From a phage, in the sequence record PX651718.1: 52,949 nt of DNA; one strand, 5' to 3'. A program made the translations under genes and the position numbers. A model generated the notes under the pieces. That model was not told the DNA's origin, did not search any database, and was given only the letters and a program-made list of their open reading frames with translations. This document shows positions 40,406 through 52,949 of the stretch, piece after piece; positions within the stretch are counted from its first letter, which is position 1, and each line of letters starts with the position of its first letter.

Positions 40406-40409
40406 CGAC

Positions 40410-41153: not shown

Positions 41154-41285
41154 CTTGCTCCAATCTTAATGTGCCAAATACGTTAAGTATGGGAGTAAAC
41201 CTGTAATTAATGGTGCATGTTTAATTGTGACAAAATTCGTCTATTTGGCAGATGAGTTAGTTGCAATTAAGCATGTTCATTTATC

Positions 41286-41301
41286 ATTAGTTGCATGTGA
41301 A
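41286..41301 (+). promoter_or_regulatory. conserved promoter-like motif ATTAGTTGCATGTGAA
   Basis: 15 of 16 match to consensus. Confidence 0.4.
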
Positions 41302-41399
41302 TAAGACCAAATCTCTGTAAATTCTGCTGAAATTGTGTGACAGATTTTAGAGAGATTATGTCTCCAAGCTAATCATTGTAGTTTTTCGACACTTTGTGT

Positions 41400-41440
41400 G
41401 TCACATATATAGCCTGTGAAAAACGTGTGGTATATTGCTG
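41400..41440 (+). promoter_or_regulatory. possible host sigma70-type promoter with extended -10 (TGGTATATT)
   Basis: TGnTATATT at 41428-41436 about 150 nt upstream of the first early ORF; weak -35. Confidence 0.25.
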
Positions 41441-41591
41441 GATTGCAACGCGCCCACCAGACTAGGAAGTCACTGATGGCGGCACACACAGGAATACTAT
41501 ATAACTCCCTACAACTTTAAGGTGGATTGAGGTAAGACAAGACCTCCACAATCGTTCTGTAGGGAGTTTTCCTTTAACTTTGGAGAATAAA

Positions 41592-41843
41592 ATGGATACC
41601 ATCAACAAACGTGCAAAATTTGCTGACCTATCAGAAGGTCAAATCTTCACTTACAACTCTATCAAATGTATTAAGGTAGAGGGTGAGTGTGGCCTATACA
41701 ACACTGTAAGATTCTATGACTCAAGCCGTGCATGTAAACTTAAAGACAGTGATGTTGTTGAAATCGAAATCGAATTAGAGCCAGATGGTTCAAATGATGA
41801 AATCATTCTGCGTAAAACTGTTGGATACACTAAAGGATTCTGA
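41592..41843 (+). CDS. hypothetical early protein
   Basis: ATG at 41592 with GGAG 6 nt upstream (track ORF starts at an upstream TTG). Confidence 0.55.
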   Translation: MDTINKRAKFADLSEGQIFTYNSIKCIKVEGECGLYNTVRFYDSSRACKLKDSDVVEIEIELEPDGSNDEIILRKTVGYTKGF

Positions 41844-41844
41844 A

Positions 41845-42087
41845 ATGAATTATGCACTGTATCAATATATCAATCGTGATGGTGTTGTTTCTCATGCTTT
41901 GGTCAATACCAAGACCAGAGCAATAATGTTGGCAGACCTAATGTCTGGTTCGTCAATTTACGAAAACAAGCTAGTGTGGAAGAATGCAGCGTATCCTGAA
42001 TACGTTTGGCAAGCAATCCAGAATGACAAACATCACAAAGTTGTGGCAACTGCCGCACATCCAGATTTCCTGAAAGTGAGAGGTTAA
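41845..42087 (+). CDS. hypothetical early protein
   Basis: ATG overlapping the previous stop (TGAAATG). Confidence 0.5.
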   Translation: MNYALYQYINRDGVVSHALVNTKTRAIMLADLMSGSSIYENKLVWKNAAYPEYVWQAIQNDKHHKVVATAAHPDFLKVRG

Positions 42088-42088
42088 C

Positions 42089-42277
42089 ATGGACTTCATC
42101 GTCTACTTTAAGTTAAATGGTGTAGAGCAAAGTTTGTACTTCAATTCTTTACTTCGTTTGCAACAGTGGGCGGAGAAGTTTGTTGGTTATGATTTTGACT
42201 ACATCAACGCATGTACACCTGACGAACATGAGGAAATCGTGTTCAGTTCTTTAAATCAAATTCTGGAGGCCAAGTGA
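42089..42277 (+). CDS. hypothetical early protein
   Basis: Track ORF with GAGAGG RBS. Confidence 0.5.
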   Translation: MDFIVYFKLNGVEQSLYFNSLLRLQQWAEKFVGYDFDYINACTPDEHEEIVFSSLNQILEAK

Positions 42278-42438
42278 AGAAGCTCAAGTACATGACTAAA
42301 ACGGTTACATACATGGCTATGTACGGTGCTTCAAAGCGTAAGGCTAAGAAATTAGCAAGAGCTGCAAATCCTCGTATGCCAGCACGTAAAGTGGCTAAAA
42401 TCGTTAACCTAGTATTTGGGAATTGGAGTGCAAAATGA
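42274..42438 (+). CDS. small basic protein (K/R-rich, 54 aa), hypothetical
   Basis: GTG at 42274 after GGAGG; below the track's 60-aa cutoff. Confidence 0.35.
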   Translation: MKKLKYMTKTVTYMAMYGASKRKAKKLARAANPRMPARKVAKIVNLVFGNWSAK

Positions 42439-42608
42439 ACGACCAGCAATTCAACACATTCATGCAGCAGATTAATCATCAAGAATTGATGGACACTCTC
42501 AAAGGCAAGAAGCCAGTCGAACGTCAATATCGTAAAATTGATAATTATATGCCAACCATTATTGCATGTGTTGGATTTCTAATTGTTCTCTACTTCCTGG
42601 TGAAATAA
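42435..42608 (+). CDS. small protein with C-terminal TM segment
   Basis: ATG at 42435 with GGAG upstream; C-terminal TIIACVGFLIVLYFLV. Confidence 0.45.
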   Translation: MNDQQFNTFMQQINHQELMDTLKGKKPVERQYRKIDNYMPTIIACVGFLIVLYFLVK

Positions 42609-42705
42609 ATGGATATTGTAAAGAAACTCGTATTCTGTATTATGATGTTCCCACTTGTGCTACTTGTTGTTGGCGCATTCATGTACTTTTAATGCCGGAG
42701 TTATT

Positions 42706-42966
42706 ATGGCTACCAGAACAGGCATGATGATTGTCCCAAGCCGTAATAACTCTTTAAGCGGCTTTACACCATATAAAATCTATGAAGTGATTTCTGGCAC
42801 TGGTGAAGCAAACCTGTCAGAAGTTGCTTTGAAGTTGGGCCGTATGGTCCACTCCGAAATCTCCTGTAACGTAGTTGATGATGAAGGCAAAATCCGTTTT
42901 GTAACAATGGATTTCTTTCGTGAATTTAACCTCAAATCTGAATTAGGAGTTCTATACCATGAATGA
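42706..42966 (+). CDS. hypothetical early protein
   Basis: ATG at 42706 with GGAG 5 nt upstream; in frame with track ORF 42655..42966. Confidence 0.5.
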   Translation: MATRTGMMIVPSRNNSLSGFTPYKIYEVISGTGEANLSEVALKLGRMVHSEISCNVVDDEGKIRFVTMDFFREFNLKSELGVLYHE

Positions 42967-43141
42967 TGATGATGTTGTCTGCCCAAGGTGTGGCAGCAAT
43001 AACGTAGACCATGTAGCACACGAAGCAGTGGGAATGTATGGTCCAGTAGTTCTGGATAGTGCATTCTGTATAGATTGTGGTTTAAACATTTATCGTGGAA
43101 AACTTATAGACAATAGTGGGAATATCCCGCCAAAAGGATAA
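42959..43141 (+). CDS. small zinc-ribbon protein
   Basis: CPRCGS ... CIDCG. Confidence 0.5.
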   Translation: MNDDDVVCPRCGSNNVDHVAHEAVGMYGPVVLDSAFCIDCGLNIYRGKLIDNSGNIPPKG

Positions 43142-43143
43142 TC

Positions 43144-43371
43144 ATGAAATTTAAATGTGTTGCTTCAACCAAAGACTATGTTCCAGTTGGCTTCATCGTT
43201 GAAGGTGAAGCTATTTCGCCTTTGGAATTTAAAGTAACAAAATCGGCTGAGAGTGTTTCTCCAGCATTTCGTAAAGGTGCTGTAGTACCTATGAATGGGA
43301 CATTCTGGACATGGCAGCGTGACCATGAAGCAGAATTTGCAGATATTTGTGAACAAGGTTTATTGCAATGA
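43144..43371 (+). CDS. small protein, paralog A (begins MKFKCVASTK)
   Basis: Track ORF with AAAGGA RBS; related to the next gene. Confidence 0.55.
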   Translation: MKFKCVASTKDYVPVGFIVEGEAISPLEFKVTKSAESVSPAFRKGAVVPMNGTFWTWQRDHEAEFADICEQGLLQ

Positions 43372-43598
43372 CAAAGTTTAAATGTGTGAAATCAACCTCC
43401 TCATCTGAACATACTCCGAAAGTTGGGGATGTGATTGAGGGAGAACTTATCCACATACAGAGAAGACACGGAACAGACACTCGAATAGTTATTTCGAATG
43501 TTGGAAACCGAATGGCTGCAAACGGAAGGCCATATTGGAACATTGGTGAAAAGGTTCCGCTAAAAGGTAGTGTCTGGTCCTGGGAAGAAGTCAAATAA
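43368..43598 (+). CDS. small protein, paralog B (begins MTKFKCVKST)
   Basis: Track ORF; ATGA overlap; same N-terminal motif and a shared W-x-W/E pattern near the C-terminus. Confidence 0.55.
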   Translation: MTKFKCVKSTSSSEHTPKVGDVIEGELIHIQRRHGTDTRIVISNVGNRMAANGRPYWNIGEKVPLKGSVWSWEEVK

Positions 43599-43628
43599 TT
43601 TCCTCAACCACTTTTGTGATGAGAGTGG

Positions 43629-43952
43629 TTGCTGAATATTATTAATCAACTTGAAGCATTTATGAAACAACGTACTCGTTTACAACGTGACCCAGCCACA
43701 GGTCGCTTGTTGCCAGCATATTTGAAAGTTGGTGACTTAGTTTACACCCGTGACTTTGCTTTTGACATTTGCCCAAGCAAAGCGTATGAAGTTCTTGCCA
43801 CCAGCTTGTCTGGTCCTAAAGTGATATTCGGTGCACTTGAGCCAATTCAGTTAACTGGAACTCAGTTTGTCATTAAAGACGAATCTGGTTGCAACCGCAT
43901 CTTCAATCTCGAAGGCGGCTTATCCAAATGGGAGAAGGTGAAGCGTGGGTAA
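43629..43952 (+). CDS. hypothetical early protein (start uncertain; ATG at 43662 possible)
   Basis: Track ORF. Confidence 0.45.
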   Translation: MLNIINQLEAFMKQRTRLQRDPATGRLLPAYLKVGDLVYTRDFAFDICPSKAYEVLATSLSGPKVIFGALEPIQLTGTQFVIKDESGCNRIFNLEGGLSKWEKVKRG

Positions 43953-44178
43953 GAATTATATCGAAATGTTTAAACGACTGCCCATTAATGGGCAGGAGTT
44001 CTTACTAAACGATGCAAGACAAGATGTGGAGCTGTCTGATAAATACAGCTTCTCGTATCAGAGGACTATTGTAAAATGGACGTTCTCTTACATATCCTAC
44101 AATCTTCCAGGAGAAACGCTTGTGATTAGTGGTTCTGGAGATTCCGTATTATCCGCTTTGGAGAAACTAAAGCAATGA
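43945..44178 (+). CDS. hypothetical early protein
   Basis: Track ORF with GTG start and AAGGTGA RBS. Confidence 0.45.
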   Translation: MGKNYIEMFKRLPINGQEFLLNDARQDVELSDKYSFSYQRTIVKWTFSYISYNLPGETLVISGSGDSVLSALEKLKQ

Positions 44179-44462
44179 ACAAGAATTCAGTCTTACGTTA
44201 TGTTGGTAAAACAAACTACAACTTTACCAACGGTAAGAAATACAAAATCGTCGCAGGTCGTGGTGACGGGGTTCCTCGCAACAACGGTACACTCGGTGCG
44301 TATATTCAATCTCCTTTGGGTTTTGTCGTTAATGACGATAACCGCAATTTATGTTATCGTACATTCTCCGATAATTGGGAACTTGTGAAAGATTCTGGTG
44401 AAGTTAGTTGGTATAAGCCTGAATCAAACATGGACCCAATTCCAATCTCAAAGGTAATGTAA
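44175..44462 (+). CDS. hypothetical early protein
   Basis: Track ORF. Confidence 0.5.
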   Translation: MNKNSVLRYVGKTNYNFTNGKKYKIVAGRGDGVPRNNGTLGAYIQSPLGFVVNDDNRNLCYRTFSDNWELVKDSGEVSWYKPESNMDPIPISKVM

Positions 44463-44704
44463 TGAAGGAAGATATTAAGGAAATATTTGCAGGATTGGTT
44501 CTTCCTATCATTGTTTGTGTTGTTGCAATTGCATTTGTGATTGTGTTGCCTACATACTTTGTTTACAAATATGAATGCAAAACCTTTGCAGAATTGCAGC
44601 AAACTGAGTTCAAATACACAATCAATGGTACGTGCTACATTGAATCACCAAGCGGTGAATGGATTACCAAAGATATGTGGTACTTTGACAAACTGACTCG
44701 TTAA
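44462..44704 (+). CDS. small membrane protein (one TM segment)
   Basis: Track ORF; hydrophobic LVLPIIVCVVAIAFVIVLPTYFVY. Confidence 0.5.
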   Translation: MKEDIKEIFAGLVLPIIVCVVAIAFVIVLPTYFVYKYECKTFAELQQTEFKYTINGTCYIESPSGEWITKDMWYFDKLTR

Positions 44705-44746
44705 ATTAACAAGGAGCATTCATTGAGTGTTCCTGATTAATCTAAC

Positions 44747-44762
44747 ATTAGTTGAATGTGAA
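44747..44762 (+). promoter_or_regulatory. conserved promoter-like motif ATTAGTTGAATGTGAA
   Basis: 15 of 16 match; about 20 nt upstream of the RBS of the next gene. Confidence 0.45.
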
Positions 44763-44783
44763 TAACAACTTTTGGAGGTATTT

Positions 44784-45305
44784 ATGTTTTACACTGGTGT
44801 GGGAAGTCGTGAAACTCCTGAGCATATTTGCGAACTGCTGACTAGAGTAGCTTCCAAACTGGCCAGACTTGGTTGGGTAGTTCGCACAGGAGGTGCTCAA
44901 GGTGCTGACGAAGCATTTCTGGCTGGCTGCAACGGAAGGACAGAGAACTTTATACCTTGGAATGGTTTTGGAAGTTATGGTGGCGTAGTACCGGACCTGA
45001 ATCGAAATTGGGAATACCTGCAAAGTGTTGAAAACGTAAACCCACTAATCCACAGGAAAGAGACAAGAAACCTTGACAAATATAGAGGATTTTGGAAACT
45101 ACAGGCACGAAATGTTAGTCAGGTGCTTGGACTTAATTTAGACACTCCATCCAAGTTTTGTATCTTATACGCTCCGACAACATCAACTGGTGTGAGTGGC
45201 GGCACCAACACTGCATATCAGGTTGCAGTTCAGTCCGGGATACCTTGTTTTAACCTGTTTGACCCTGCTATAGTGGCAAGGTTTGAGAAATTTGTATCTG
45301 AGTGA
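44784..45305 (+). CDS. Rossmann-fold DprA/SLOG-superfamily-like protein
   Basis: YTGVGSRETP ... RTGGAQGADEAF resembles the DprA/Smf-type GSR ... SG.A.G.D..A signature; ATG at 44784 with GGAGG upstream. Confidence 0.45.
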   Translation: MFYTGVGSRETPEHICELLTRVASKLARLGWVVRTGGAQGADEAFLAGCNGRTENFIPWNGFGSYGGVVPDLNRNWEYLQSVENVNPLIHRKETRNLDKYRGFWKLQARNVSQVLGLNLDTPSKFCILYAPTTSTGVSGGTNTAYQVAVQSGIPCFNLFDPAIVARFEKFVSE

Positions 45306-45342
45306 TTATCAGGGTGCATTTACGAGTGTACCCGAATAATCC

Positions 45343-45358
45343 AAATAGTTGGATTTGA
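45343..45358 (+). promoter_or_regulatory. weaker copy of the promoter-like motif (AATAGTTGGATTTGAA)
   Basis: 14 of 16 match. Confidence 0.3.
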
Positions 45359-45433
45359 AGAGGGACAAAGCTATTCCGTGGTTAGCAATGTCACTGAAAC
45401 TTAAACTGTAATTAACTTAAGAGAATCTTAATC

Positions 45434-45811
45434 ATGGCACAATATTCAGATGTAAACACTGGCATCATCGGTCCTAACGGCTTCAAGAAAGACCCAAAAC
45501 ATCCCGACATTCGTGGGCGTATTAACGTTGACGGAATCTGGTATTGGGTGTCTGGTTGGAACAAGCAAGCAAATGGTAATGAGTTTACCTCACTTGCATT
45601 AACCATCATGACCCAAGAACAGGTCGATGAAATGATGCGTAAGCGTGAAGAGAAAGCTAAAGCCAAAGCTCAACCTCAAGCTGCCGCTCAACAGCAACAG
45701 CAACGTCAGCAACCTTCTGCACAACAGCAAGCACCTGCTCAGCAACAGACGCAGAACAGTAACTACAATCCGAACGAGCCGAAAGACTTCGACGACGACA
45801 TTCCGTTCTAA
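45434..45811 (+). CDS. compact ssDNA-binding-like protein carrying the E. coli SSB C-terminal tip DFDDDIPF
   Basis: C-terminal ...PKDFDDDIPF; Q/A/P-rich linker; short N-terminal beta-rich domain with GIWYWVSGW. Confidence 0.6.
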   Translation: MAQYSDVNTGIIGPNGFKKDPKHPDIRGRINVDGIWYWVSGWNKQANGNEFTSLALTIMTQEQVDEMMRKREEKAKAKAQPQAAAQQQQQRQQPSAQQQAPAQQQTQNSNYNPNEPKDFDDDIPF

Positions 45812-45821
45812 TGGAGATGCC

Positions 45822-45850
45822 CTATGAAAATTCTATGTTTTATAGGGCTA
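45822..45850 (+). terminator. possible terminator hairpin
   Basis: CCCTAT ... ATAGGG stem with T-rich loop after the stop at 45811. Confidence 0.3.
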
Positions 45851-45920
45851 CATAATTGGGAGATTTCTCATACAAACGATTATGTAACCTTTTGGGTGTG
45901 TAAGAACTGTTCAGCAATGC

Positions 45921-46811
45921 GTGAGGAATATCGTGGGAACTAAGGCTATCAAAATTCCGGTAAATTTGGTATCGAAAGGTGATATATACCTGCACGATTG
46001 CAAAGAGTACCTAATAGAAAGGATACTCCATTTTGCCAACATTGTACAACTGCAATATAATGGAGGATATTTCAACTTGGACGCATACAAGATTGTGGAA
46101 ATTGTCGATAAGCATGAAAATGCGCCAAAGGTTACTCCAGTCAAAGCTGGGATGGTTGTAGCAGGTGAAACACTTAGCTATGGTGTAAACTTCTTCTACA
46201 TTACTCGCGTAGAAGATTATGGTTCAGATGTTCGACTGCATCACTCGAAAGGGTACTTCGACTTTGTGAAGAGTAGGGTTGTCTACGTTGTTAACCCAGG
46301 CCCAATGGCAAGCTCACCAACAATTGAGTTCCCAAACCAAATAAATCCAATATTCCTTCCTGTGGAGGAGTTCAAGAAGCAGGAAATATCCGATGAAGAA
46401 GATGTTCTCGGAAAAGATGTAGAAGTTGGCGATGTTATTTGGGTAAATGGAAATTGGGCAACTGTAACAAACGTGTACAAACATCCACATTCGCCAGCCA
46501 ATAAAGTGAATGTAGACTATGGAAACATTAAAGGTTTACAAGTACGGCTGGCATTAACTGGAACATTCTCAAGAAAGGTAAGAGCAGTAATGGAAACATT
46601 AAATATTCAAAATGCAATCGAAGCACAACGCATTCTTCTGCAAAAGCTGGAGCAAATGTTGGAGTTAACTCAGCTTCCGCCAACAGAAGATGGCAAGATT
46701 GCAGTTGGTAACTGTAATATTCGCGTGGACAAGGCATCAATCTCTAAAGCCGCGCGCGATGAAATGAAAGCTGCTGCGAGCAAATCCGCAGAGCTTATCA
46801 AGAAGCTGTAA
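45921..46811 (+). CDS. hypothetical protein (296 aa)
   Basis: Track ORF with GTG start. Confidence 0.5.
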   Translation: MRNIVGTKAIKIPVNLVSKGDIYLHDCKEYLIERILHFANIVQLQYNGGYFNLDAYKIVEIVDKHENAPKVTPVKAGMVVAGETLSYGVNFFYITRVEDYGSDVRLHHSKGYFDFVKSRVVYVVNPGPMASSPTIEFPNQINPIFLPVEEFKKQEISDEEDVLGKDVEVGDVIWVNGNWATVTNVYKHPHSPANKVNVDYGNIKGLQVRLALTGTFSRKVRAVMETLNIQNAIEAQRILLQKLEQMLELTQLPPTEDGKIAVGNCNIRVDKASISKAARDEMKAAASKSAELIKKL

Positions 46812-46863
46812 TTAACAGAGGTCATTCCACTTCGAGTGGCCTCGATTAATTATTGGAGGAATT

Positions 46864-47223
46864 ATGAAACTTAAATACATCATTATTTATACTCTGGCAT
46901 TAATTGTTTTGGCGTTCTTTAGCTTTGAGTCTAAAGCGTCAACAAAGAACTTTAAATGTGGAGCATATACTCTTGTAGTTGATAACATCGGAGACAGCCA
47001 ACCTCTGATTGCGTCAATAATTCCTGAATCTGGTGTTTGGATAGAAGTCCCAAGTGATGAGCCAAATCCTGCAACAGTTTTATTTTACAACATTAAAGAT
47101 AGCAGGTTTGCTGCACTGTTTATAAATCATGAAGATAAACTTGTGCTACAGATTTTCCGTGATGGGGATTTCCTCAAAGCAAACTATCCTGTCTTATCCA
47201 CCAGCTGTACGGAGAAGAAATGA
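46864..47223 (+). CDS. secreted/periplasmic protein with N-terminal signal peptide
   Basis: MKLKYIIIYTLALIVLAFFSFESKAS; RBS GGAGG. Confidence 0.55.
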   Translation: MKLKYIIIYTLALIVLAFFSFESKASTKNFKCGAYTLVVDNIGDSQPLIASIIPESGVWIEVPSDEPNPATVLFYNIKDSRFAALFINHEDKLVLQIFRDGDFLKANYPVLSTSCTEKK

Positions 47224-47453
47224 CTTCAACAGAATTTATTATTGATGGGGTTCAATACCTGCTGGAATCCAATTGCGAGTATCGCCATTGGGCAGTAATT
47301 CACGACCGAGTTGTAAAATACTTGGAACGTGTAGGGAAGGAAACTGCTAAATCTATGTTGTTTGAGGCAACAGTTCTTGGAACAACCTCAATCAATAAAG
47401 AATTAGTGTCTTTCAAATTAACCATTCACCCTAGTGGGAATAGCTTTCAATGA
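47220..47453 (+). CDS. hypothetical protein
   Basis: Track ORF; ATGA overlap. Confidence 0.5.
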   Translation: MTSTEFIIDGVQYLLESNCEYRHWAVIHDRVVKYLERVGKETAKSMLFEATVLGTTSINKELVSFKLTIHPSGNSFQ

Positions 47454-47725
47454 TTTCAATAGACCAAGTTCCAGTTGAACTAAGTAAGGCAAAAGGTAAG
47501 CTAGACGATGCCAAATCTGACTTATCTACCTTTGATTTAAATGCTCCGGCCGATAAAGTTAGGGTTTTCATCGGCTGTATTGATGGATGGGTGCTTATTG
47601 AGCATGGAGTCCTTCGAGCATTACTTGTTGATGAAGTTGCCAAGGCTCAGAAAGCATTTGACGAGATTGATAACCTCAACACACTGTTAAACAATACTTT
47701 AAGCGATGCGCTAAAGGATAAGTAA
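47450..47725 (+). CDS. hypothetical protein
   Basis: Track ORF. Confidence 0.5.
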   Translation: MISIDQVPVELSKAKGKLDDAKSDLSTFDLNAPADKVRVFIGCIDGWVLIEHGVLRALLVDEVAKAQKAFDEIDNLNTLLNNTLSDALKDK

Positions 47726-48138
47726 TGAATGTTAAGCTCGGTCAACGTTCTTTGGACCGACTTAAGGGAGTAAATCCTTCATTAGTTGCAGTTTTCAAAC
47801 GTGCATGTGAAACAATGCCTTTTGATGTGACTGTTTTGGAAGGTTTACGCTCTTATGAACGTCAACAAGAACTGTTAAAACAGGGTGCAACCAAAGTTTC
47901 AGTTAGCCGACACATGTCAGGCAACGCTTTAGACATTGCACCATATCCAATTGACTGGAATGACCTCGAACGATTCAAAGTTTTAGCTCATCATATGTTC
48001 AAAGCTGCAAAAGAGCTTGGAATTACCATTCGTTGGGGTGGGAACTGGAGCCGTATTGATGAAAATCAGCCGTATCCACCACTTGCGCCAGGTAAGAAGA
48101 AGCTGATTGATATGCCGCACTTCGAACTTCCAGCATAA
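47725..48138 (+). CDS. peptidase M15-family peptidoglycan hydrolase
   Basis: SRHMSGNALDIAP (His...Asp zinc ligands) and C-terminal PHFELP, as in M15 phage endolysins. Confidence 0.7.
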   Translation: MNVKLGQRSLDRLKGVNPSLVAVFKRACETMPFDVTVLEGLRSYERQQELLKQGATKVSVSRHMSGNALDIAPYPIDWNDLERFKVLAHHMFKAAKELGITIRWGGNWSRIDENQPYPPLAPGKKKLIDMPHFELPA

Positions 48139-48146
48139 CTTCATCA

Positions 48147-48437
48147 ATGGAGCATCCGATGGAATATCAGGAAATACCGAAAGAGTTAGAGCGTATGCAA
48201 TCTCGCACATCTCGTGCAGAGGCAGAACTCCACCAGCATTTGTCAAACTATGTGTATGATTCTCGAAATCTCAGATACGAAATTTCGGTAGATGGTTGTT
48301 GCTATCCGGTAACATACGATGAGAAGACCGCCATCTTAGACATATTAGTGAAGGGTGGAAAAGAGCGGATTGAACAGCTCAAAATCCTTAATGCGGAACT
48401 TCAAGGTATGTGGGAGAAACTAAATGCAAAACGATAG
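48147..48437 (+). CDS. hypothetical protein
   Basis: Track ORF. Confidence 0.45.
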   Translation: MEHPMEYQEIPKELERMQSRTSRAEAELHQHLSNYVYDSRNLRYEISVDGCCYPVTYDEKTAILDILVKGGKERIEQLKILNAELQGMWEKLNAKR

Positions 48438-48972
48438 CATTGCTCAAGCAGTAGAACAGCTAAAGTCCTGGCGTAGAGATGAAACCTTATTGGTTCGTTT
48501 CTACACAGGCGAAACTAATTCTGAATTTGTAGATGCGTGGATTGATGGCCTGTCTTGGCGTCATTATGACTTCAACATGCGAGACTATTTGCATGAAGAA
48601 TACGGCATTGAATATCCAGAAGACGGTACATATGACGTAATTGAGTCAAATGAAGAAGATGTTACCGAAGTTTGCTTTGTTGACGGGCTGTTCAGCATTC
48701 GTAAATACGACAAGTTCAACGAACTGCTTGTTGATACTGATTTGGATGTAATTCTTGCAGCATTCCGTAGTGGTGATATTGATATTTTCACTGTGGATGA
48801 TTTGAACGACATGTTCATCACACGTTGCGACTCAATTACAGAATATTTGAAGCAAAGTGAGGCACTGGATATTCCAGACCGCCTTGCACCATATATTGAT
48901 TGGGATGCAATCACCAGAGATTATGGAAGTGACTACATTTTCTCTGAGGGAATATTATTCTTAAATGCGTGA
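48424..48972 (+). CDS. hypothetical acidic protein
   Basis: Track ORF. Confidence 0.5.
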   Translation: MQNDSIAQAVEQLKSWRRDETLLVRFYTGETNSEFVDAWIDGLSWRHYDFNMRDYLHEEYGIEYPEDGTYDVIESNEEDVTEVCFVDGLFSIRKYDKFNELLVDTDLDVILAAFRSGDIDIFTVDDLNDMFITRCDSITEYLKQSEALDIPDRLAPYIDWDAITRDYGSDYIFSEGILFLNA

Positions 48973-49276
48973 TTTAAATATTGCTGAACTTGAGGCTGGA
49001 TTGATTGTTCACCACCAGCCTCGAAACACTTTCTATCGTATTCTTGGGCCTACAAAGATTAAAACTCACTGCGGAAGTTGGGTGGATGGGTTTGCTTACC
49101 AAGAAGTGAAGAAGTACGGGGGACCATACTTTCTTAAGTATTGATTCTTCTACCATCTACACACGACCGAAAGAGCTATTTGACTCAGACTGGAAAACAC
49201 TATAGTTCCAGGCGGGTTTCTTCGAAGTGCCAAGCGGGTTTTGTGCTCGCATTGGCCTTCGGCTTTAGTCTGAAAC

Positions 49277-49292
49277 ATTAGTGGGATTTGAT
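49277..49292 (+). promoter_or_regulatory. promoter-like motif variant ATTAGTGGGATTTGAT preceded by TCTGAAAC
   Basis: Upstream TCTGAAAC is shared with the copies at 49417 and 51572. Confidence 0.35.
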
Positions 49293-49416
49293 TCTGACCA
49301 CTTAGGGAAGAAAGGCATTATACACTTATCGCCAAATGGGTGTCAAGCACTTTCTTCATTTATTTAATTTATTCTTATTATTCTTTTTGTTTGGAATATT
49401 GGAATAATTCTGAAAC

Positions 49417-49432
49417 ATTAGTTGGAGATGAA
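49417..49432 (+). promoter_or_regulatory. promoter-like motif ATTAGTTGGAGATGAA preceded by TCTGAAAC
   Basis: Immediately upstream of the ATG at 49433; the motif's GGAG doubles as RBS. Confidence 0.45.
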
Positions 49433-49609
49433 ATGATTAAAGTTCTGGAAAAAGATACAGTAACTTTCACACGCCAATGTCGGTTATGTGCTTCTGTTGT
49501 GTCTTATGAATTCTCGGACTTAAAGATATACACAGGGAAGAATGACCGAGGATATTTCGCATATAGATTTATCACTTGTCCTGTTTGCAAGAAAGACATT
49601 CGACATTAG
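49433..49609 (+). CDS. small zinc-ribbon protein (58 aa)
   Basis: CRLCAS ... CPVCKK; ATG at 49433, in frame with track ORF 49340..49609. Confidence 0.5.
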   Translation: MIKVLEKDTVTFTRQCRLCASVVSYEFSDLKIYTGKNDRGYFAYRFITCPVCKKDIRH

Positions 49610-49620
49610 TTGGAATTGAA
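49605..49620 (+). promoter_or_regulatory. promoter-like motif ATTAGTTGGAATTGAA
   Basis: 14 of 16 match; followed by about 640 nt without a convincing ORF. Confidence 0.4.
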
Positions 49621-50255
49621 ACAACATCAGATAAGAACTTTGTAACTAGGTAGTCCGTCTGGTACCAAGGCGTGTGAGAACGTTCGATTCGTTCTACAAA
49701 GTTCTTTTCGATGGAATGTTTCCATCATATTACATTTATCTTTTAACATAGGCCATAGGGCCGGAATACTTCTTCGCAGAAAAGCTATTCACTTGTTATA
49801 GGCGATGTATTGGGATGAATTGGAACTAAATAAGCAAGCTGTTAGGGCTGAATAATTAGAGGGTTATGCCTCATGCTTATGTTAGTCATTCGAAAATAGG
49901 TTTGTGCCACAAGCTGCTGGTGCTCTGAGGAAGTCGGACAAACAGGGCTTAGAGTGGCATAATCCGCACAAAACCGCGCCACCAGCTATGCCAAAGCGGG
50001 TGGATTGGGTGAATGTATTGGGAAGGGTTGCAAAGCCTCTGTGACACGCCTGAGCCGCAAGGCGACGACACTCATGTGATTAGCGTATCGCACCCTAACG
50101 GGAGTAACCCTTCACCAATGCAGTTATCCAGAATTGACACAAACGGTAGGCAGCGGCCCGATTTTCGGCCTTCCTGCGCTACCCTGTGGCCTGTTCATGG
50201 GCCAAAAGATGAGAAGAGAAGTCACAAACACTGAATCGAAAATTGGAGAGTTCCT
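49621..50255 (+). ncRNA. candidate structured non-coding RNA region (unclassified) downstream of a promoter-like motif
   Basis: No credible ORF on either strand; several stable hairpins including tRNA T-arm-like GAGAACG-TTCGATT-CGTTCTA with acceptor-like pairing CTTTGTA/TACAAAG (49638-49702). Confidence 0.3.
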
Positions 50256-50576
50256 ATGATTCGCAAGCATTCTGCTAAAGTTTTGACGTTGAGAAATGTA
50301 CTAATGTTCCCTTCAAGTGGGGAAGGAGAGGAAGAAACAATCCACTTCGTTCTCGTTGGTGGGCGTTGGTACTATAACGGCACCAATTCTTTCCACGTAA
50401 GTCTGTCGGAGAAAGATGGATTCTGGAAGCACACCTTTAAGGAGTTGCTTGAAAGCAGTGCCAACTACACCCTTGCCGAAGTTAAGAAATATTTCTACTA
50501 CGGCCCAAACAAGTCCATGCAAATCGCAACTCGCAATTGGACAACAAACCAACCGATTTACGGAGTTCCATTTTGA
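50256..50576 (+). CDS. hypothetical protein
   Basis: Track ORF with GGAGAG RBS. Confidence 0.55.
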   Translation: MIRKHSAKVLTLRNVLMFPSSGEGEEETIHFVLVGGRWYYNGTNSFHVSLSEKDGFWKHTFKELLESSANYTLAEVKKYFYYGPNKSMQIATRNWTTNQPIYGVPF

Positions 50577-50863
50577 ACTTACAAGACAAATCTAAAGAAG
50601 AGTTGATTGAGATTATCCAGAAAGAGCACGAACTCGCTGGCATCACAATTAACTTTGAACTCCAGGCAATGCAAGCTGTTGCTTTGGGTCATGGTCTAAT
50701 GGCTACACTCATTCATGCCAAGAATGTGTTAGGCGTTGACAACGAAAAATACCAAATTCTGGAGAAAGCTGCGCAAGAGCGGATTTCGCAGTGCTTGGTG
50801 ACATTAGTTGATTTGGGAATCGACGCAGAAACTGCGAACAAACGTATCCTACAAGGCCACTAA
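50573..50863 (+). CDS. hypothetical protein (TTG start overlapping the previous stop)
   Basis: TTG at 50573 with GGAG 7 nt upstream; in frame with track ORF 50537..50863. Confidence 0.45.
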   Translation: MNLQDKSKEELIEIIQKEHELAGITINFELQAMQAVALGHGLMATLIHAKNVLGVDNEKYQILEKAAQERISQCLVTLVDLGIDAETANKRILQGH

Positions 50864-50865
50864 AA

Positions 50866-51540
50866 ATGTCTTATCATGATGATGACAAAGAGATTGCACT
50901 ATCAACGTGTAAGCAATGGCTCAATGATAATGATGCCGTCTATCTTGCCAAGGAAGATGTTATCATTATGTGGGTCCATTTTAATCCAGAATCGAAGCGC
51001 GGTGAGTGGCAACGCTACAAGATGAAAGAGGCTTGTCGCATAATTAAAGCCACACGCGCTGGCTTCTCCGCCATGAAATATATTAAGCCGGAGATGCTGA
51101 TGCTTGCTGCACAGGAAGAAGAACGTGCATATAAGCAGGCTGTTAAATCTCGTTCAACTGTTCCTCCAGAGTTCTTTAATTTGGAGCGCGCTGGACACTT
51201 CAACAATTTAGAAATGTTGACACTGTGCCTGTTGCAAGAATTAGTTGGAAGAGGACAAAACATTGAAGCTGTTTGTCTTGGAGAACTTATGAAAGAGTTG
51301 TTCTCGGCAAAGGGCTTTGCTGTGCCAAATCGAACTTTACGCTGGAAATTGTTGCGAGCAGTCGCGCAAGAAGCTGGTGTAGTTGTTCGTGACAGAACAA
51401 ACCGACTCACTGTAACTGGAGTTGGGCGTTTTGTAGCAATCCAGATTGAGGGTTATGACGAATCAATCATCACTGAACTCACTGTCGCTGAGACAAAGGA
51501 TTTAGTAAATAAAACACTAGAACGATTCAACAGATACTGA
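50866..51540 (+). CDS. hypothetical protein (224 aa)
   Basis: Track ORF. Confidence 0.55.
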   Translation: MSYHDDDKEIALSTCKQWLNDNDAVYLAKEDVIIMWVHFNPESKRGEWQRYKMKEACRIIKATRAGFSAMKYIKPEMLMLAAQEEERAYKQAVKSRSTVPPEFFNLERAGHFNNLEMLTLCLLQELVGRGQNIEAVCLGELMKELFSAKGFAVPNRTLRWKLLRAVAQEAGVVVRDRTNRLTVTGVGRFVAIQIEGYDESIITELTVAETKDLVNKTLERFNRY

Positions 51541-51571
51541 GTCGTTTGACGAATCAGAGCAGTTCTGAAAC

Positions 51572-51587
51572 ATTAGTTGGATGTGGA
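51572..51587 (+). promoter_or_regulatory. promoter-like motif ATTAGTTGGATGTGGA preceded by TCTGAAAC
   Basis: 15 of 16 match; about 75 nt upstream of the next ATG. Confidence 0.45.
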
Positions 51588-51663
51588 AAGAGAAAGGCTC
51601 TTTAATTTTATCTAAGTCACGTCACCGTGGCGTGCAAAACTATTCAATATAAGGTATATACAA

Positions 51664-52002
51664 ATGGCTAAGATTGTAACCGTAACTCAGTACGAAGCTA
51701 ACGATGGTTCCCTGTTCCTGACCGAAGCAGAGTGTAATGCACATGACTTCAAACTGGAAAACGGTGCTAAAATTGAGAAAGCTGCCGAAGCGTACCTGAA
51801 CACCGTTGGCGCTATCGACCGTTCTCGCTCCATGCAGAAGAACACCATCGAGCAGTTCCTGGCATTCTACCTGCCGTGGGTTGAAGCTGGTGAGCCGGAA
51901 GTTGAGCGTACTAAGTTCGATACTCCGAAAGAAGCTAAAGTTGCTGACGCAGTTGTCGCAGAAGCTGCCGAAGCTGCTGTAGAAGAAGCTCCGGTATTCT
52001 AA
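51664..52002 (+). CDS. hypothetical protein with acidic Ala/Glu-rich C-terminus ending in F
   Basis: Track ORF with AAGGTATA RBS; codon usage resembles highly expressed E. coli genes; ends AEAAVEEAPVF. Confidence 0.55.
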   Translation: MAKIVTVTQYEANDGSLFLTEAECNAHDFKLENGAKIEKAAEAYLNTVGAIDRSRSMQKNTIEQFLAFYLPWVEAGEPEVERTKFDTPKEAKVADAVVAEAAEAAVEEAPVF

Positions 52003-52908
52003 GTTGCCGATGGCAAACTTGAGAGACTAAGCTAAATCGATCTGGCATGCACTGGAAGTTTTCCGGTGCTGCCTTGAACCCACTCTGAAAGGAAGAGTGG
52101 GCTTCAATGAGCATTCTTGTGATTAGAGTTGGGAGGAAGGCCGATGCCCAAGCTCATGGCCCAGACGAGAGTGTTCATTGAAGTAGTTTTCTGAGTCTTA
52201 CGACGGGCCTAAACTGCCTGGAGTTATTGCGACTGTTTTATTCATTTAAAATAAATGCAAATGATTCTGAAATGCGAGTTGCGGCTTAATTAAATTTAAG
52301 TCCTCTCCGTGGTCTTCCAATCCCACGTAACCAAATTTGGCGCATTGTGGCTTCGAGATGTGATTAATAAATCGGAGCAATAATTAATTTGTATTCTGCG
52401 ATGCAATGCAGGCTTAAGTCCCTCAGTGCGCGTGGGGATGTGACAGAGTACAAACTTAATTATGCAGTTGGATATTTCTAGAGGACGGACGAGCACACTG
52501 GAATGTCTTCAATTGGTTTAGTGTGAGAAGCTATGCCAATATGAAACGTAACTCCTTGGGGAAGTGCTCCTCTGGATTTCCCTCCACACAGGAATCTCAA
52601 GCCTGTGGCAGCGACTTCGAAGCTGCACTGCGTAACCTAAATTCACCCTAAAGTGAGTTGCCCTGAGTATGGAAATAAACTGCTCATAACCGATGGTATC
52701 TACAAAGGTAGATTAAATCAGGTTGCCTGTTGGTACTTGGGGGTTCAACACCTGCTTGCACTCGCAAAGTAGTGCCTTGTACCTGAGATGAAGTGAGTCG
52801 GGACCATCAATCCCACGTTATGTCAAAACACAGTAGGCGGCTCACAGATTCTACAAGCCTCGCAGTTCGGGGAAAACCTGCGTTATCAAAACCCCCCCCT
52901 CATTATTT

Positions 52909-52949
52909 GGACGAGTAGCTCAGAAGGTTTGCATTGTGCTCAGTCAGGT
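52909..52949 (+). tRNA. 5' portion of the same tRNA (acceptor 5' strand GGACGAG, D-arm) interrupted by about 20 nt of extra sequence
   Basis: GGACGAG at 52909-52915 is the exact complement of CTCGTCC at 44-50; GCTCAG occurs twice (52918-52923 and 52938-52943) around a 14-nt insert; joining 52923 to 52944 and on to position 1 gives a standard 75-nt cloverleaf. Confidence 0.5.

What the first reader, a model, noticed from the sequence alone, without database searches (positions are those of the whole stretch)
52909..52949. A tRNA is split across the window ends, with a 20-nt anomaly in its D-loop
GGACGAGTAGCTCAG at 52909-52923 is the 5' acceptor and D-stem of the tRNA whose 3' part occupies 1..54 (acceptor strands GGACGAG/CTCGTCC are exact complements). 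The window is therefore a circular permutation of a circular or terminally redundant genome. Between the halves sit 14 extra nt (AAGGTTTGCATTGT) followed by a second GCTCAG; without them the gene is a standard 75-nt tRNA. This looks like an assembly or circularisation artefact, a terminal-repeat boundary, or a small insertion inactivating the tRNA. The anticodon loop is also non-canonical, so the UCG (Arg) call is tentative.
Basis: seen in the sequence. Interest (0 to 1): 0.5.

Follow-up and report, generated by a model that had tools for sequence, protein, structure and literature searches.

The report
Split, oddly shaped phage tRNA gene
The window is a whole phiEcoM-GJ1-like coliphage genome that happens to be cut open inside its single tRNA-like gene, and the 20 extra bases in that gene's D-loop are a real, lineage-conserved feature already visible in published relatives, not an assembly error.

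Summary
Observation confirmed. Window 52909-52949 plus 1-54 join into one 95-nt tRNA-like gene. It is 100% identical to Escherichia phage ST32 15909-16003 and is annotated in phiEcoM-GJ1 as "tRNA-Arg, may contain an intron". The window is a circular permutation of a Carltongylesvirus (Chaseviridae) genome. The cut point is arbitrary: by homology to Mangalitsa, the physical ends (about 3 kb direct terminal repeats) lie near window 38.1 kb.

The 20-nt anomaly is not an artefact. All 24 tRNA-bearing relatives compared carry a 20/21-nt insertion at the same place, between A14-G15 and G18-G19. It exists in two sequence types.

A second anomaly is that the anticodon arm is 2 nt short: a 5-bp stem and a 5-nt loop.

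The tRNA core is nearly invariant. The 5-nt loop (UUCGA, UUAGG, UAAGA, UCGAA) and the insert core are divergence hot spots.

Some close relatives lack the gene exactly. Others carry a terminator-like hairpin at the same site.

Best reading: a conserved, non-canonical tRNA-shaped RNA. It is more likely a tRNA mimic than a routine CGA decoder. Function is untested.

ARAGORN's type-II Leu(CAG) fold, a spliced intron, an artefact and a terminal-repeat boundary are all rejected.

In passing: D-loop hairpin insertions recur in many unrelated viral tRNA genes in IMG/VR.

The parts
52909..52915 (+). acceptor stem, 5' strand (GGACGAG)
   Evidence: Perfect 7-bp complement of window 44-50. Invariant in 14 haplotypes.
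52916..52923 (+). U8 A9, D-stem 5' strand GCTC, A14 G15
   Evidence: Rfam tRNA alignment. GCTC pairs with GAGC at window 2-5 in 100% of cells.
52924..52943 (+). 20-nt D-loop insertion, 'type 1' (AAGGTTTGCATTGT + GCTCAG)
   Evidence: Present in all 24 tRNA-bearing relatives compared, as type 1 (5 genomes) or a 21-nt type 2 (19 genomes). The core differs 6/14 between types, against 2-4% in the flanks. Type 2 folds as a small hairpin. Type 1 does not fold better than shuffles.
52944..52949 (+). 3' part of the D-loop (U16 C17 A17a G18 G19 U20); the window ends here
   Evidence: Contiguous with window position 1 in ST32 and GJ1.
1..6 (+). A21, D-stem 3' strand GAGC, A26
7..21 (+). Anticodon arm, 15 nt instead of 17: stem ATCTG/CAGAT and 5-nt loop TTCGA (positions 33-37 of a normal loop; UCG if read as an anticodon)
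   Evidence: Rfam aligns the loop with 2 positions missing. The stem is invariant. The loop is TTCGA in 19 genomes, TTAGG in 2, TAAGA in 2 and TCGAA in 1. The loop is significantly more diverged than the flanks.
22..43 (+). Variable loop GTGTC and T arm GTTGG-TTCGAAT-CCAAC
   Evidence: The only variable site is T-loop position 60 (T/C).
44..54 (+). Acceptor stem 3' strand CTCGTCC, discriminator G73, encoded CCA
   Evidence: In relatives C/T at one position gives G-C or G.U, the discriminator is G or A, and the tail is CCA, CCC or CTC.
52892..52899 (+). Poly-C tract ending the conserved non-coding block just upstream; left border of the variable 'cassette' site
   Evidence: Its length varies between relatives. 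PYps3T, BSBP01 and 2KOFFS diverge from the tRNA-bearing phages right after it.

Best explanation
This is a genuine single-copy gene of phiEcoM-GJ1/ST32-like coliphages (Carltongylesvirus, Chaseviridae) for a tRNA-shaped RNA. It is cut in two only because a circularised assembly of a terminally redundant linear genome was opened at an arbitrary point.

Shown: the 20 extra bases are a lineage-conserved expansion of the D-loop, between A14-G15 and G18-G19. They look like a degenerate partial duplication of the D-arm, and in type 2 also of the anticodon stem.

Shown: all nucleotides that build the tRNA L-shape are intact and almost invariant. These are U8, A14, G15/C48, G18 G19, A21, A26/G44, G46, T54-C56, A58 and G53-C61. 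So the RNA is under selection to look like a tRNA, with the insertion retained.

Inferred: the insertion stays in the RNA, because E. coli has no machinery for short tRNA introns and no tRNA-splicing enzyme or RNA ligase is annotated in the relative Mangalitsa.

Inferred: the RNA lies inside a polycistronic transcript and is probably released by RNase P and 3' processing.

Shown: the anticodon arm is 2 nt short. It has a G-C-closed 5-nt loop that copies positions 33-37 of a normal loop.

Shown: that loop changes identity between near-identical phages on one unchanged type-I body (Arg UCG, Leu UAG, Leu AAG, Ser CGA).

Inferred, and my commitment: for these reasons it is more likely a tRNA mimic than a routine CGA-decoding tRNA. 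The loop would be shown to some factor that reads anticodon loops, or the RNA acts as a processing or stability element.
For: Identity and contiguity:
- (100% to ST32, 98.9% to GJ1).
- GenBank feature 'tRNA-Arg, may contain an intron'.
- The ST32 paper describes a '95 bp' tRNA-Arg (PMC6266442).

tRNA-likeness:
- Rfam gives 43.8 bits with a D-loop insertion, and 45.6 bits for SA91KD.
- 99.2% of cells are paired in the type-I cloverleaf.

Conservation:
- The tRNA core has 0-2 variable columns per segment and a minor-allele frequency of 0-0.013.
- The flanks and the neighbouring ORF have 0.07-0.17.
- The few core changes are structure-neutral: G-C to G.U, T-loop position 60, and N73.

The insertion is tolerated rather than random:
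- It is conserved in position and length in 24 genomes.
- The natural 6-nt deletion in SA91KD removes only insert and 16-17a residues and keeps G18 G19 U20 A21.

Hot spots:
- The loop differs at 2-3 of 5 positions, against 2-7% in +-200 nt, in three lineages (p from 0.05 to 0.0005).
- The insert core differs at 6 of 14 positions (p about 1e-6).

Argument against routine decoding:
- The anticodon arm is 15 nt.
- Position 20 is U. By my own knowledge, E. coli ArgRS depends on A20 and C35.
- The Leu and Ser anticodons sit on a type-I body.

Dispensable cassette:
- The gene is exactly absent in PYps3T/4T/16T (PMC8762354).
- It is replaced by a hairpin plus T-run in BSBP01 and 2KOFFS.

No tRNA-splicing enzyme or RNA ligase is annotated in Mangalitsa.

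The physical ends are elsewhere (PMC6753284, PMC8762354, PMC12842549).
Against: - There are no expression, processing or charging data for this RNA in anything I could read.
- The majority allele reads as U33-UCG-A37 if the G31-C39 pair opens.
- CGA makes up 14% of Arg codons (6.8 per 1000) in the window's long ORFs. From memory that is roughly twice the E. coli value, and E. coli has no tRNA-Arg(UCG). An ordinary codon-supplement role is therefore not excluded.
- U33 and a purine at position 37 are kept in all four loop variants, which fits decoding as well as mimicry.
- The near-identity of the core could partly reflect recent spread of the cassette by recombination rather than long purifying selection.
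- The type 1 versus type 2 insert difference is a single event, so its p-value overstates the case for 'hypervariability'.
- There is no compensatory (both-sides) covariation, because the sequences are so similar.
- The window's own type 1 insert has no significant fold.
Confidence: 0.55

Rival explanations
1. Ordinary accessory decoder. It is a functional tRNA-Arg(UCG) that supplements reading of CGA, which is rare and slow in E. coli. The D-loop insertion is tolerated at the elbow, and the G31-C39 pair opens to give a 7-nt loop.
For: - It is annotated as tRNA-Arg in GJ1, ST32, Ecp_YSF, Pel53 and Tiny.
- U33, UCG and A37 are present in 19 of 24 genomes.
- CGA is 14% of Arg codons in the window.
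- N73 is G or A, which as far as I recall matches E. coli tRNA-Arg.
- The full set of tertiary nucleotides is present.
- In unrelated viral contigs, D-loop hairpin insertions occur in tRNA genes with canonical Phe(GAA), Thr(GGU) or Met(CAU) loops, inside tRNA arrays. Such insertions may therefore be compatible with function.
Against: - The anticodon arm is 2 nt shorter than in any canonical tRNA.
- There is no A20.
- Three lineages replaced the anticodon by Leu or Ser triplets on the same body, which would abolish ArgRS recognition (C35), while the rest of the gene stayed intact.
- The gene is absent or replaced in close relatives.
Confidence: 0.27
2. Transcript punctuation or stability element. 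The tRNA shape serves as an RNase P / 3'-end processing or protective structure at the boundary between the long early-gene block and the spanin and replication genes. The anticodon loop and insert are simply unconstrained.
For: - The gene lies about 30 nt upstream of the next ORF, and simple scans find no promoter or terminator of its own.
- At exactly this site BSBP01 and 2KOFFS carry a stable long hairpin followed by a T-run instead (-23.7 kcal/mol, z -4.7).
- The acceptor and T arms, which are the RNase P determinants, are the most conserved parts.
Against: - PYps3T-type phages have neither element.
- Mere lack of constraint does not explain 40-60% divergence in the loop between phages whose flanks differ by 2-4%.
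- Conservation of the D-arm tertiary nucleotides goes beyond what a minimal RNase P substrate needs.
Confidence: 0.15
3. Artefact or boundary. The 20 nt are an assembly or circularisation error, or they mark the terminal-repeat junction.
For: - The anomaly lies close to the window ends.
- It contains a 6-nt direct repeat (GCTCAG).
Against: - An identical sequence lies in the middle of the ST32, GJ1, Bp10, SKA49 and DE15 records and of a metagenome contig. The homologous 21-nt version is present in 19 other genomes.
- The terminal repeats map about 14.8 kb away.
- The insertion is not at the cut point.
Confidence: 0.01
4. Type-II tRNA-Leu(CAG), as ARAGORN draws the 95-nt sequence. GCUCA-GUCAGGU-AGAGC would be the anticodon arm, and AUCUG-UUCGA-CAGAU a long variable arm, whose loop would then be free to vary.
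For: - ARAGORN makes this call on the joined window and on ST32.
- The loop GUCAGGU has U33 and G37, like E. coli tRNA-Leu(CAG).
- It would explain the variable pentaloop.
- The literature mentions 'arginine or leucine' (PMC8762354).
Against: - The required D stem pairs in only 30% of cells, and two of its four pairs never form.
- The A31.A39 mismatch is invariant.
- SA91KD deletes the proposed anticodon.
- ARAGORN finds nothing in type-2 genomes.
- The sequence UAGCUCAG...GGUAGAGCA is a textbook D-arm, and Rfam aligns it as such.
Confidence: 0.02

Closest known systems
Annotated tRNA-Arg of Escherichia phages phiEcoM-GJ1 (NC_010106 gt01, 14456-14550) and ST32 (15909-16003)
   Same: It is the same gene. 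The window's 95 nt are 100% identical to ST32 and 98.9% identical to GJ1, in the same genomic position.
   Different: Nothing differs in sequence. The published descriptions stop at 'may contain an intron' and 'without an intron'. They do not mention the short anticodon arm, the two insert types, the loop variants or the alternative cassettes. Mangalitsa was published as having no tRNA (PMC6753284).
Canonical class I bacterial/phage tRNA (Rfam RF00005)
   Same: It has a 7-bp acceptor stem, U8 A9, a 4-bp D stem, G18 G19, A26, a 5-bp anticodon stem, a 5-nt variable loop, a 5-bp T stem with TTCGAAT, and N73-CCA. It scores above the Rfam gathering score.
   Different: The D-loop has 29 nt instead of 7-11. 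The anticodon loop has 5 nt instead of 7. The anticodon identity is not fixed among close relatives.
Archaeal non-canonical (bulge-helix-bulge) tRNA introns in the D-loop
   Same: Both are a short extra segment interrupting the D-loop of a tRNA gene. My pattern scan of cellular genomes recovered such cases in Nitrososphaerales, Woesearchaeota and Aenigmarchaeota.
   Different: The host here is E. coli, which has no splicing endonuclease. No bulge-helix-bulge can be drawn around the insert. The window's type 1 insert has no significant fold. No RNA ligase or endonuclease for tRNA is annotated in the relative Mangalitsa.
tRNA mimics such as bacterial YrlA Y RNAs (PMC4201824), and phage tRNAs that counter tRNA-targeting defences (PMC10264068, PMC11555353)
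   Same: It is a tRNA-shaped RNA whose T arm, D arm and tertiary contacts are conserved while the anticodon region departs from the norm. D. radiodurans Yrn1 is modelled with a 6-nt 'anticodon loop'. It is phage-borne, and its variation is concentrated in the anticodon loop.
   Different: The arm order is that of a normal tRNA, not permuted as in YrlA. No Ro60 gene is annotated in the relative Mangalitsa. No defence system or nuclease has been linked to this RNA. Published resistant phage tRNAs are full-size decoders.
D-loop hairpin insertions in tRNA genes of unrelated viral contigs (IMG/VR; found here)
   Same: The insertion sits at the same place, between A14-G15 and G18-G19, and is 17-29 nt long. 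About half of these genes also have off-size (6- or 8-nt) anticodon loops. Most are missed or mis-typed by ARAGORN.
   Different: There is no sequence homology. Those inserts are clear hairpins (mean z -3.8) with compensatory changes between relatives, whereas the window's insert is not a significant hairpin. Their hosts are unknown, although one contig carries tmRNA and SmpB and another a GH25 lysozyme, which points to bacterial hosts.

Membership tests
tRNA (Rfam RF00005, class I) | Covariance-model score at or above the curated gathering score over the full model | tested here: met
   43.8 bits against 29, model positions 1-71, on ST32, which is identical to the joined window. The scores are 39.2-45.6 bits for FXie-2024a and SA91KD. 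Several type-2 genomes reach only 24-27 bits as local hits.
tRNA (Rfam RF00005, class I) | 7-bp acceptor stem, D stem and T stem, with the conserved tertiary nucleotides (U8, A14, G18 G19, A21, T54 Psi55 C56, A58) | tested here: met
   All are present and invariant in 14 haplotypes.
tRNA (Rfam RF00005, class I) | Anticodon arm with a 5-bp stem and a 7-nt loop | tested here: not met
   The arm is 15 nt, with stem AUCUG/CAGAU and a 5-nt loop. A 7-nt loop is possible only with a 4-bp stem.
tRNA (Rfam RF00005, class I) | D-loop of about 7-11 nt | tested here: not met
   The D-loop is 29 nt in the window, 30 nt in type 2 and 24 nt in SA91KD.
tRNA-Arg (E. coli ArgRS substrate) | C35 and U/G36 in the anticodon | tested here: inconclusive
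   Met for the window's allele (UCG) if the loop is read as positions 33-37. Not met in Bp7/JL1 (UAG), FXie-2024a/PYps16N (AAG) and TH29 (CGA).
tRNA-Arg (E. coli ArgRS substrate) | A20 in the D-loop (identity element, from my own knowledge of the literature) | tested here: not met
   The residue between G19 and A21 is U (window 52949) in all haplotypes that have it.
tRNA-Arg (E. coli ArgRS substrate) | Aminoacylation with arginine | not testable with these tools
   This needs in vitro charging or an acid-urea Northern blot.
Type II tRNA-Leu (ARAGORN call) | A D stem and an anticodon stem that pair, and a long variable arm | tested here: not met
   The D stem is paired in 30% of cells. The anticodon stem has an invariant A.A mismatch. 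SA91KD deletes the proposed anticodon.
Spliced tRNA intron (archaeal BHB type or group I) | A bulge-helix-bulge at the exon-intron borders, or a group I core of more than 200 nt, plus a splicing enzyme in the host or phage | tested here: not met
   The insert is 20 nt, which is too short for group I. No BHB can be drawn and type 1 has no significant fold. No RNA ligase or splicing endonuclease is annotated in the relative Mangalitsa. That E. coli lacks EndA is my own knowledge. Actual splicing was not tested.
Assembly / terminal-repeat artefact | The feature is absent from independently sequenced relatives, or it coincides with the genome termini | tested here: not met
   It is present in 24 of 24 tRNA-bearing relatives. 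The termini map to about window 38.1 kb.

The most novel reading that the evidence does not exclude
The RNA is an anticodon-loop decoy. It is a tRNA-shaped body kept constant by selection that displays a G-C-clamped copy of positions 33-37 of a chosen host tRNA. Two alleles match known host loops: UUAGG is the loop core of E. coli tRNA-Leu(UAG), and UCGAA is that of tRNA-Ser(CGA). The majority allele UUCGA would mimic an Arg-UCG loop.

The decoy would titrate or block a host factor that recognises anticodon loops, such as an anticodon nuclease, a toxin or a modification enzyme. The loop would be swapped as phages meet hosts with different specificities. The elbow insertion and the short arm would keep the RNA out of translation.

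The many unrelated viral tRNA genes that have both D-loop hairpins and off-size anticodon loops would then be a broader, undescribed class of the same strategy.
Probability: 0.15. Interest if true: 0.8.

Novelty: new variant of a known kind. Interest (0 to 1): 0.45.

Why it matters
At the level of the finding as given, the answer is mostly housekeeping. The genome is complete, it is opened at an arbitrary point, its only tRNA-like gene is real, and the '20-nt anomaly' should not be 'corrected'. Annotation pipelines are unreliable on this gene: ARAGORN finds nothing in the linear window or in type-2 relatives, and it mis-types the type-1 form.

Beyond that, the gene is an unexplained object in easily cultured coliphages (ST32, phiEcoM-GJ1, Mangalitsa, flopper). 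It has a strongly conserved tRNA body, a 20-nt elbow insertion, an anticodon arm 2 nt too short, and a loop that switches between Arg-, Leu- and Ser-like triplets among near-identical phages. If expressed, it would be either a tRNA that stretches what the translation machinery tolerates or a tRNA mimic. Either way it bears on the current question of why phages carry tRNAs and how they deal with tRNA-targeting host defences. It could be tested with a Northern blot and a deletion mutant.

Tried and rejected
1. ARAGORN's type-II Leu(CAG) fold was rejected on pairing counts and on the SA91KD deletion.
2. An alternative in which the second GCTCAG forms the D stem, placing the insert between A9 and G10, is disfavoured. 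U8/A9 and A14/G15 flank the first copy, type 2 has GCTT there, and SA91KD would lose A14-G15.
3. A spliced intron was rejected: it is too short for group I, no BHB can be drawn, and no enzyme is annotated.
4. A prophage att-site or tRNA-fragment explanation was rejected. The phage is lytic, the exact pattern is absent from 185,579 bacterial and archaeal genomes, and no close E. coli chromosomal tRNA exists.
5. A search for a repeated phage-promoter motif upstream of the tRNA found only chance-level matches, one of them inside a coding region. The sigma-70 and terminator scans found nothing at the gene.
6. Rfam at gathering threshold on the whole window gave no hits, because the tRNA is split. 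No other family matches the junction region at E<=1 apart from weak chance hits.
7. Metagenome and IMG/VR scans for more loop variants added only 3 new genomes, all with TTCGA.
8. Compensatory covariation could not be assessed, because the 14 haplotypes are 96% identical.
9. The original phiEcoM-GJ1 paper (PMC2223254) is not held, so I could not read why 'intron' was suggested.
10. Six literature searches found no description of D-loop insertions in bacteriophage tRNAs. The 2020 review of non-canonical tRNAs does not mention them.
Full report
**1. What is in the sequence**

The last 41 bases of the window (52909-52949) and the first 54 bases (1-54) form a single tRNA-like gene once the ends are joined.

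- 5' part: GGACGAG (acceptor 5' strand), TA (U8 A9), GCTC (D stem), AG (A14 G15), 20 extra bases AAGGTTTGCATTGT+GCTCAG (52924-52943), then TCAGGT.
- 3' part, from window position 1: A, GAGC (D stem 3' strand), A26, ATCTG-TTCGA-CAGAT, GTGTC, GTTGG-TTCGAAT-CCAAC, CTCGTCC, G73, CCA.

ARAGORN sees nothing in the linear window. On the joined ends it reports one 95-nt gene, and after removal of 52924-52943 it reports a 75-nt tRNA-Arg(tcg). The Rfam tRNA model scores the identical ST32 sequence at 43.8 bits against a gathering score of 29. It places 23 extra nucleotides in the D-loop and leaves the anticodon loop two positions short.

**2. What the window is**

Both ends match phiEcoM-GJ1-like coliphages (Chaseviridae, Cleopatravirinae, Carltongylesvirus) at 90-99% identity. 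In those records the two window ends are adjacent. The joined 95 nt are 100% identical to ST32 15909-16003 and 98.9% identical to phiEcoM-GJ1 14456-14550. So no base is missing or duplicated at 52949/1.

GenBank annotates the GJ1 copy as 'tRNA-Arg, may contain an intron'. The ST32 paper describes 'the tRNA-Arg of 95 bp ... without an intron' (PMC6266442).

Chaseviridae genomes are linear and non-permuted, with long direct terminal repeats:
- about 3 kb according to the ICTV profile (PMC12842549);
- 2,339 bp shown experimentally for PYps23T (PMC8762354);
- 3,234 bp by PhageTerm for Mangalitsa (PMC6753284).

The Mangalitsa repeat maps to window ~38141-40770. That is about 14.8 kb upstream of the tRNA. 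The window is therefore a complete genome with one repeat copy, circularised by assembly and opened at an arbitrary place that happens to lie between U20 and A21 of the tRNA.

**3. The 20-nt anomaly is real and conserved**

I compared 24 non-redundant tRNA-bearing genomes or contigs: GenBank isolates from many laboratories, one IMG/VR contig and two metagenome contigs. All carry an insertion at the same position. It occurs in two forms:
- Type 1, AAGGTTTGCATTGT-GCTCAG, in the window, GJ1, ST32, Bp10 and one metagenome contig.
- Type 2, AAGGTCTGCTCCAGA-GCTTAG (21 nt), in the other 19.

TH24 has one C>T change in the insert that keeps a G.U pair. SA91KD has a 6-nt deletion (TAGTCA) that removes only insert and 16-17a residues and leaves G18 G19 U20 A21 intact.

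The insertion lies between A14-G15 and G18-G19, the part of the D-loop that varies in length among tRNAs. It looks like a degenerate partial tandem copy of the D-arm. In type 2 the motif TCTG...CAGA also repeats the anticodon stem.

Type 2 folds into a small hairpin, AG-G-UCUG CUC CAGA-G-CU. For the window's type 1, the fold is no better than shuffled sequence (-0.8 kcal/mol).

An artefact, a terminal-repeat boundary and an att-site remnant are excluded. The exact motif is also absent from 185,579 bacterial and archaeal genomes, and no close E. coli chromosomal tRNA exists.

**4. Which fold**

The type-I cloverleaf with the first GCTC paired to GAGC and the insert inside the D-loop has 99.2% of cells paired across 14 haplotypes.

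ARAGORN's drawing treats the true D-arm as a Leu(CAG) anticodon arm and the true anticodon arm as a long variable arm. That fold needs a D stem that pairs in only 30% of cells and has an invariant A.A mismatch. Its 'anticodon' is deleted in SA91KD. ARAGORN also finds nothing at all in type-2 genomes. This explains why Mangalitsa was published with '0 tRNAs' and why the literature speaks of 'arginine or leucine'.

There is no both-sided covariation, because the sequences are 96% identical. The few changes in stems are G-C to G.U.

**5. A second anomaly: the anticodon arm**

With the canonical landmarks in place (A26 opposite G44, 5-nt variable loop GUGUC, C48 for the G15 Levitt pair), the anticodon arm is 15 nt rather than 17. 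It has stem AUCUG/CAGAU and loop UUCGA. A 7-nt loop (G-UUCGA-C, giving U33, UCG, A37) exists only if the closing G-C pair opens, which leaves a 4-bp stem.

Position 20 is U. By my own knowledge, E. coli ArgRS relies on A20 and C35.

**6. Pattern of variation**

The tRNA core is almost invariant. It has 0 variable columns in positions 1-15 and 2 in the 34 positions from the anticodon-stem 3' strand to the acceptor 3' strand. Its minor-allele frequency is 0-0.013, against 0.07-0.17 in 200 nt on either side, including the downstream ORF.

Against this background two patches stand out.

(a) The 5-nt loop is UUCGA in 19 genomes, UUAGG in Bp7 and JL1, UAAGA in FXie-2024a and PYps16N, and UCGAA in TH29. 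Each variant differs from its closest UUCGA relative at 2-3 of 5 positions, while the surrounding ~480 aligned positions differ by 2-7% (Fisher p 0.0045-0.0063, 0.011-0.05 and 0.00054 for the three lineages). In all four alleles the first base is U and the last is a purine, as at positions 33 and 37 of a real anticodon loop. UUAGG and UCGAA equal positions 33-37 of E. coli tRNA-Leu(UAG) and tRNA-Ser(CGA), compared from memory of those sequences.

(b) The insert core differs at 6 of 14 positions between types, against 2-4% elsewhere (p about 1e-6). This is a single event, so it should not be over-read.

**7. The locus is a variable cassette site**

The site lies immediately after a conserved non-coding block that ends in a poly-C tract (52892-52899).
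- PYps3T, PYps4T and PYps16T lack exactly the tRNA (also noted in PMC8762354).
- BSBP01 and 2KOFFS carry instead a ~55-nt irregular hairpin followed by a T-run (-23.7 kcal/mol, z -4.7).
- TH23 has an additional 70-nt tRNA-like gene right behind the first. ARAGORN calls it 'tRNA-?' with a 6-nt anticodon loop, and Rfam gives no hit.

Downstream come a 46-aa acidic ORF of unknown function and the Rz/Rz1 spanin pair. Upstream are small early genes of unknown function. No promoter or terminator of its own was found by simple scans. No RNA ligase or tRNA-processing enzyme is annotated in the relative Mangalitsa.

**8. How it most likely works**

Shown:
- The gene is real, conserved and tRNA-shaped.
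- The insertion is conserved in place and length.
- The anticodon arm is short.
- The loop and the insert are divergence hot spots.
- The gene is dispensable in some relatives.

Inferred:
- The insert stays in the RNA. A 20-nt segment cannot self-splice, no bulge-helix-bulge can be drawn, and E. coli lacks the archaeal endonuclease.
- The RNA is cut out of a polycistronic transcript by RNase P and 3' processing, and it folds into an L-shape with a protrusion at the elbow.

My commitment is that it is more likely a tRNA mimic than a routine decoder. The reasons are the 15-nt arm, the missing A20, and three lineages that placed Leu- or Ser-type triplets on the same class I body. LeuRS and SerRS of E. 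coli act on class II tRNAs, and ArgRS needs C35.

What the mimic does is open. Diversifying change confined to a loop that copies positions 33-37 of real anticodon loops suggests that the loop is presented to something that reads anticodon loops. Replacement by a terminator-like hairpin in relatives suggests a role in transcript processing or stability.

The ordinary reading, tRNA-Arg(UCG) supplementing CGA, remains alive at roughly one chance in four. CGA is 14% of Arg codons in the window, which is about twice the host value as I remember it. E. coli has no UCG tRNA. U33 and R37 are kept in all alleles.

**9. Comparison with known things**

The gene itself is already in GenBank and in two papers, so its existence is not new. 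Several points are not described in anything I could find (six literature searches; review PMC7609411):
- the conserved D-loop expansion as such;
- the short anticodon arm;
- the allele series of the loop;
- the alternative cassettes.

It passes the Rfam tRNA threshold but fails two textbook features: a 7-nt anticodon loop and a D-loop of 7-11 nt. It resembles archaeal D-loop introns only in position. It resembles tRNA mimics such as YrlA (PMC4201824) in keeping the T/D core while departing at the anticodon end, but it has the normal arm order and no Ro60 context. It fits the general theme that phage tRNAs evolve in the anticodon loop in conflict with host defences (PMC10264068, PMC11555353), but no such link has been tested here.

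**10. A wider observation made on the way**

I scanned IMG/VR with GTAGCTCAG-N14-32-GGTAGAGC-N20-32-GGTTCGA. This pattern requires a D-loop at least 12 nt too long. It returned 88 loci. Besides the 5 GJ1-like ones, there are 46 distinct tRNA genes from unrelated viral contigs (20-416 kb) with a 17-29-nt insertion at the same D-loop position.

- These inserts are clear hairpins, with mean z -3.8 against shuffles and compensatory differences between related copies.
- ARAGORN detects only 18 of the 46, all mis-typed. It detects 45 of 46 once the insert is replaced by TT: 16 Phe(GAA), a few Thr, Met, Ser and Ala, and 21 with 6- or 8-nt anticodon loops.
- Several sit inside phage tRNA arrays.
- One lies near a GOLLD RNA, a tmRNA, SmpB and a T4 Rnl1-like RNA ligase.

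The same pattern in 596 Gb of cellular genomes gave mostly archaeal D-loop introns and tRNA-fragment duplications. Only about three bacterial hairpin cases appeared. D-loop insertions in tRNA genes thus appear to be enriched in viruses. The GJ1-type gene may be one instance of this, with a poorly structured insert. I followed this up only partly.

**11. Verdict**

The artefact and terminal-boundary interpretation is rejected, and the circular-permutation interpretation is accepted. The object is a known, annotated gene with unexplained non-canonical features. Interest is moderate, at 0.45: it is ordinary as an annotation matter, genuinely odd as a tRNA, and cheap to test in cultured phages.

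Noticed in passing
window 1847-2500 (stops at 2339-2341 and 2366-2368): The flavin-dependent thymidylate synthase (thyX) gene carries two in-frame stop codons where relatives have Trp: TGG>TGA (G>A at 2341) and TGG>TAG (G>A at 2367). These are the only two differences from phage flopper in 201 nt. No other conserved gene showed such stops in a tblastn check against Mangalitsa ORFs. The cause could be pseudogenisation, sequencing error, mutagenesis or read-through; which one is unknown.
   Followed up: partly
IMG/VR loci L032-L114 (e.g. L037 8444-8510, L033 5429-5519, L067 10460-10550, L047 3273-3373): 46 distinct tRNA genes in unrelated viral contigs have a 17-29-nt hairpin inserted in the D-loop between A14-G15 and G18-G19. 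About half also have 6- or 8-nt anticodon loops. Most are missed or mis-typed by ARAGORN. The same pattern is very rare in bacterial genomes, and in archaea it corresponds to D-loop introns. I found no description in the searchable literature.
   Followed up: partly
L033 (IMGVR_UViG_3300034272_001354) 2700-8900: One of these D-loop-hairpin tRNA genes lies in a cluster with a GOLLD RNA (306 bits), a tmRNA, SmpB and a T4 Rnl1-like RNA ligase.
   Followed up: partly
L007 (Escherichia virus TH23, MT446397) 401-470; probably also TH28 and TH33: A second 70-nt tRNA-like gene lies directly after the first. It has good acceptor, D and T arms but a 6-nt anticodon loop (CGACGG). ARAGORN calls it 'tRNA-?(Val|Arg)', and Rfam gives no hit at E<=1.
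   Followed up: partly
L028 (BSBP01, PQ231202) and L029/L030 (2KOFFS, PV615261); equivalent to window 52900..60: At the exact site of the tRNA these two phages carry a ~55-nt irregular hairpin followed by a T-run (-23.7 kcal/mol, z -4.7). It may be a terminator or a processing site. PYps3T/4T/16T have neither element. The linear 2KOFFS record is also broken at this locus, at the downstream end of the poly-C tract.
   Followed up: partly
window 52100-52900: About 800 nt upstream of the tRNA have no ORF longer than 66 aa. The last ~200 nt are well conserved among relatives and end in a poly-C tract (52892-52899) whose length varies between genomes. The T4 Imm-like superinfection-immunity gene that Mangalitsa has here (14042-14296) has no counterpart in the window, and window 52463-52651 is unrelated sequence.
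   Followed up: no
L012 (PP952070, 'Staphylococcus phage Pel53'): This record is labelled as a Staphylococcus hyicus phage, but it is ~90% identical to these coliphages across the region, including the tRNA. The host label looks doubtful.
   Followed up: no
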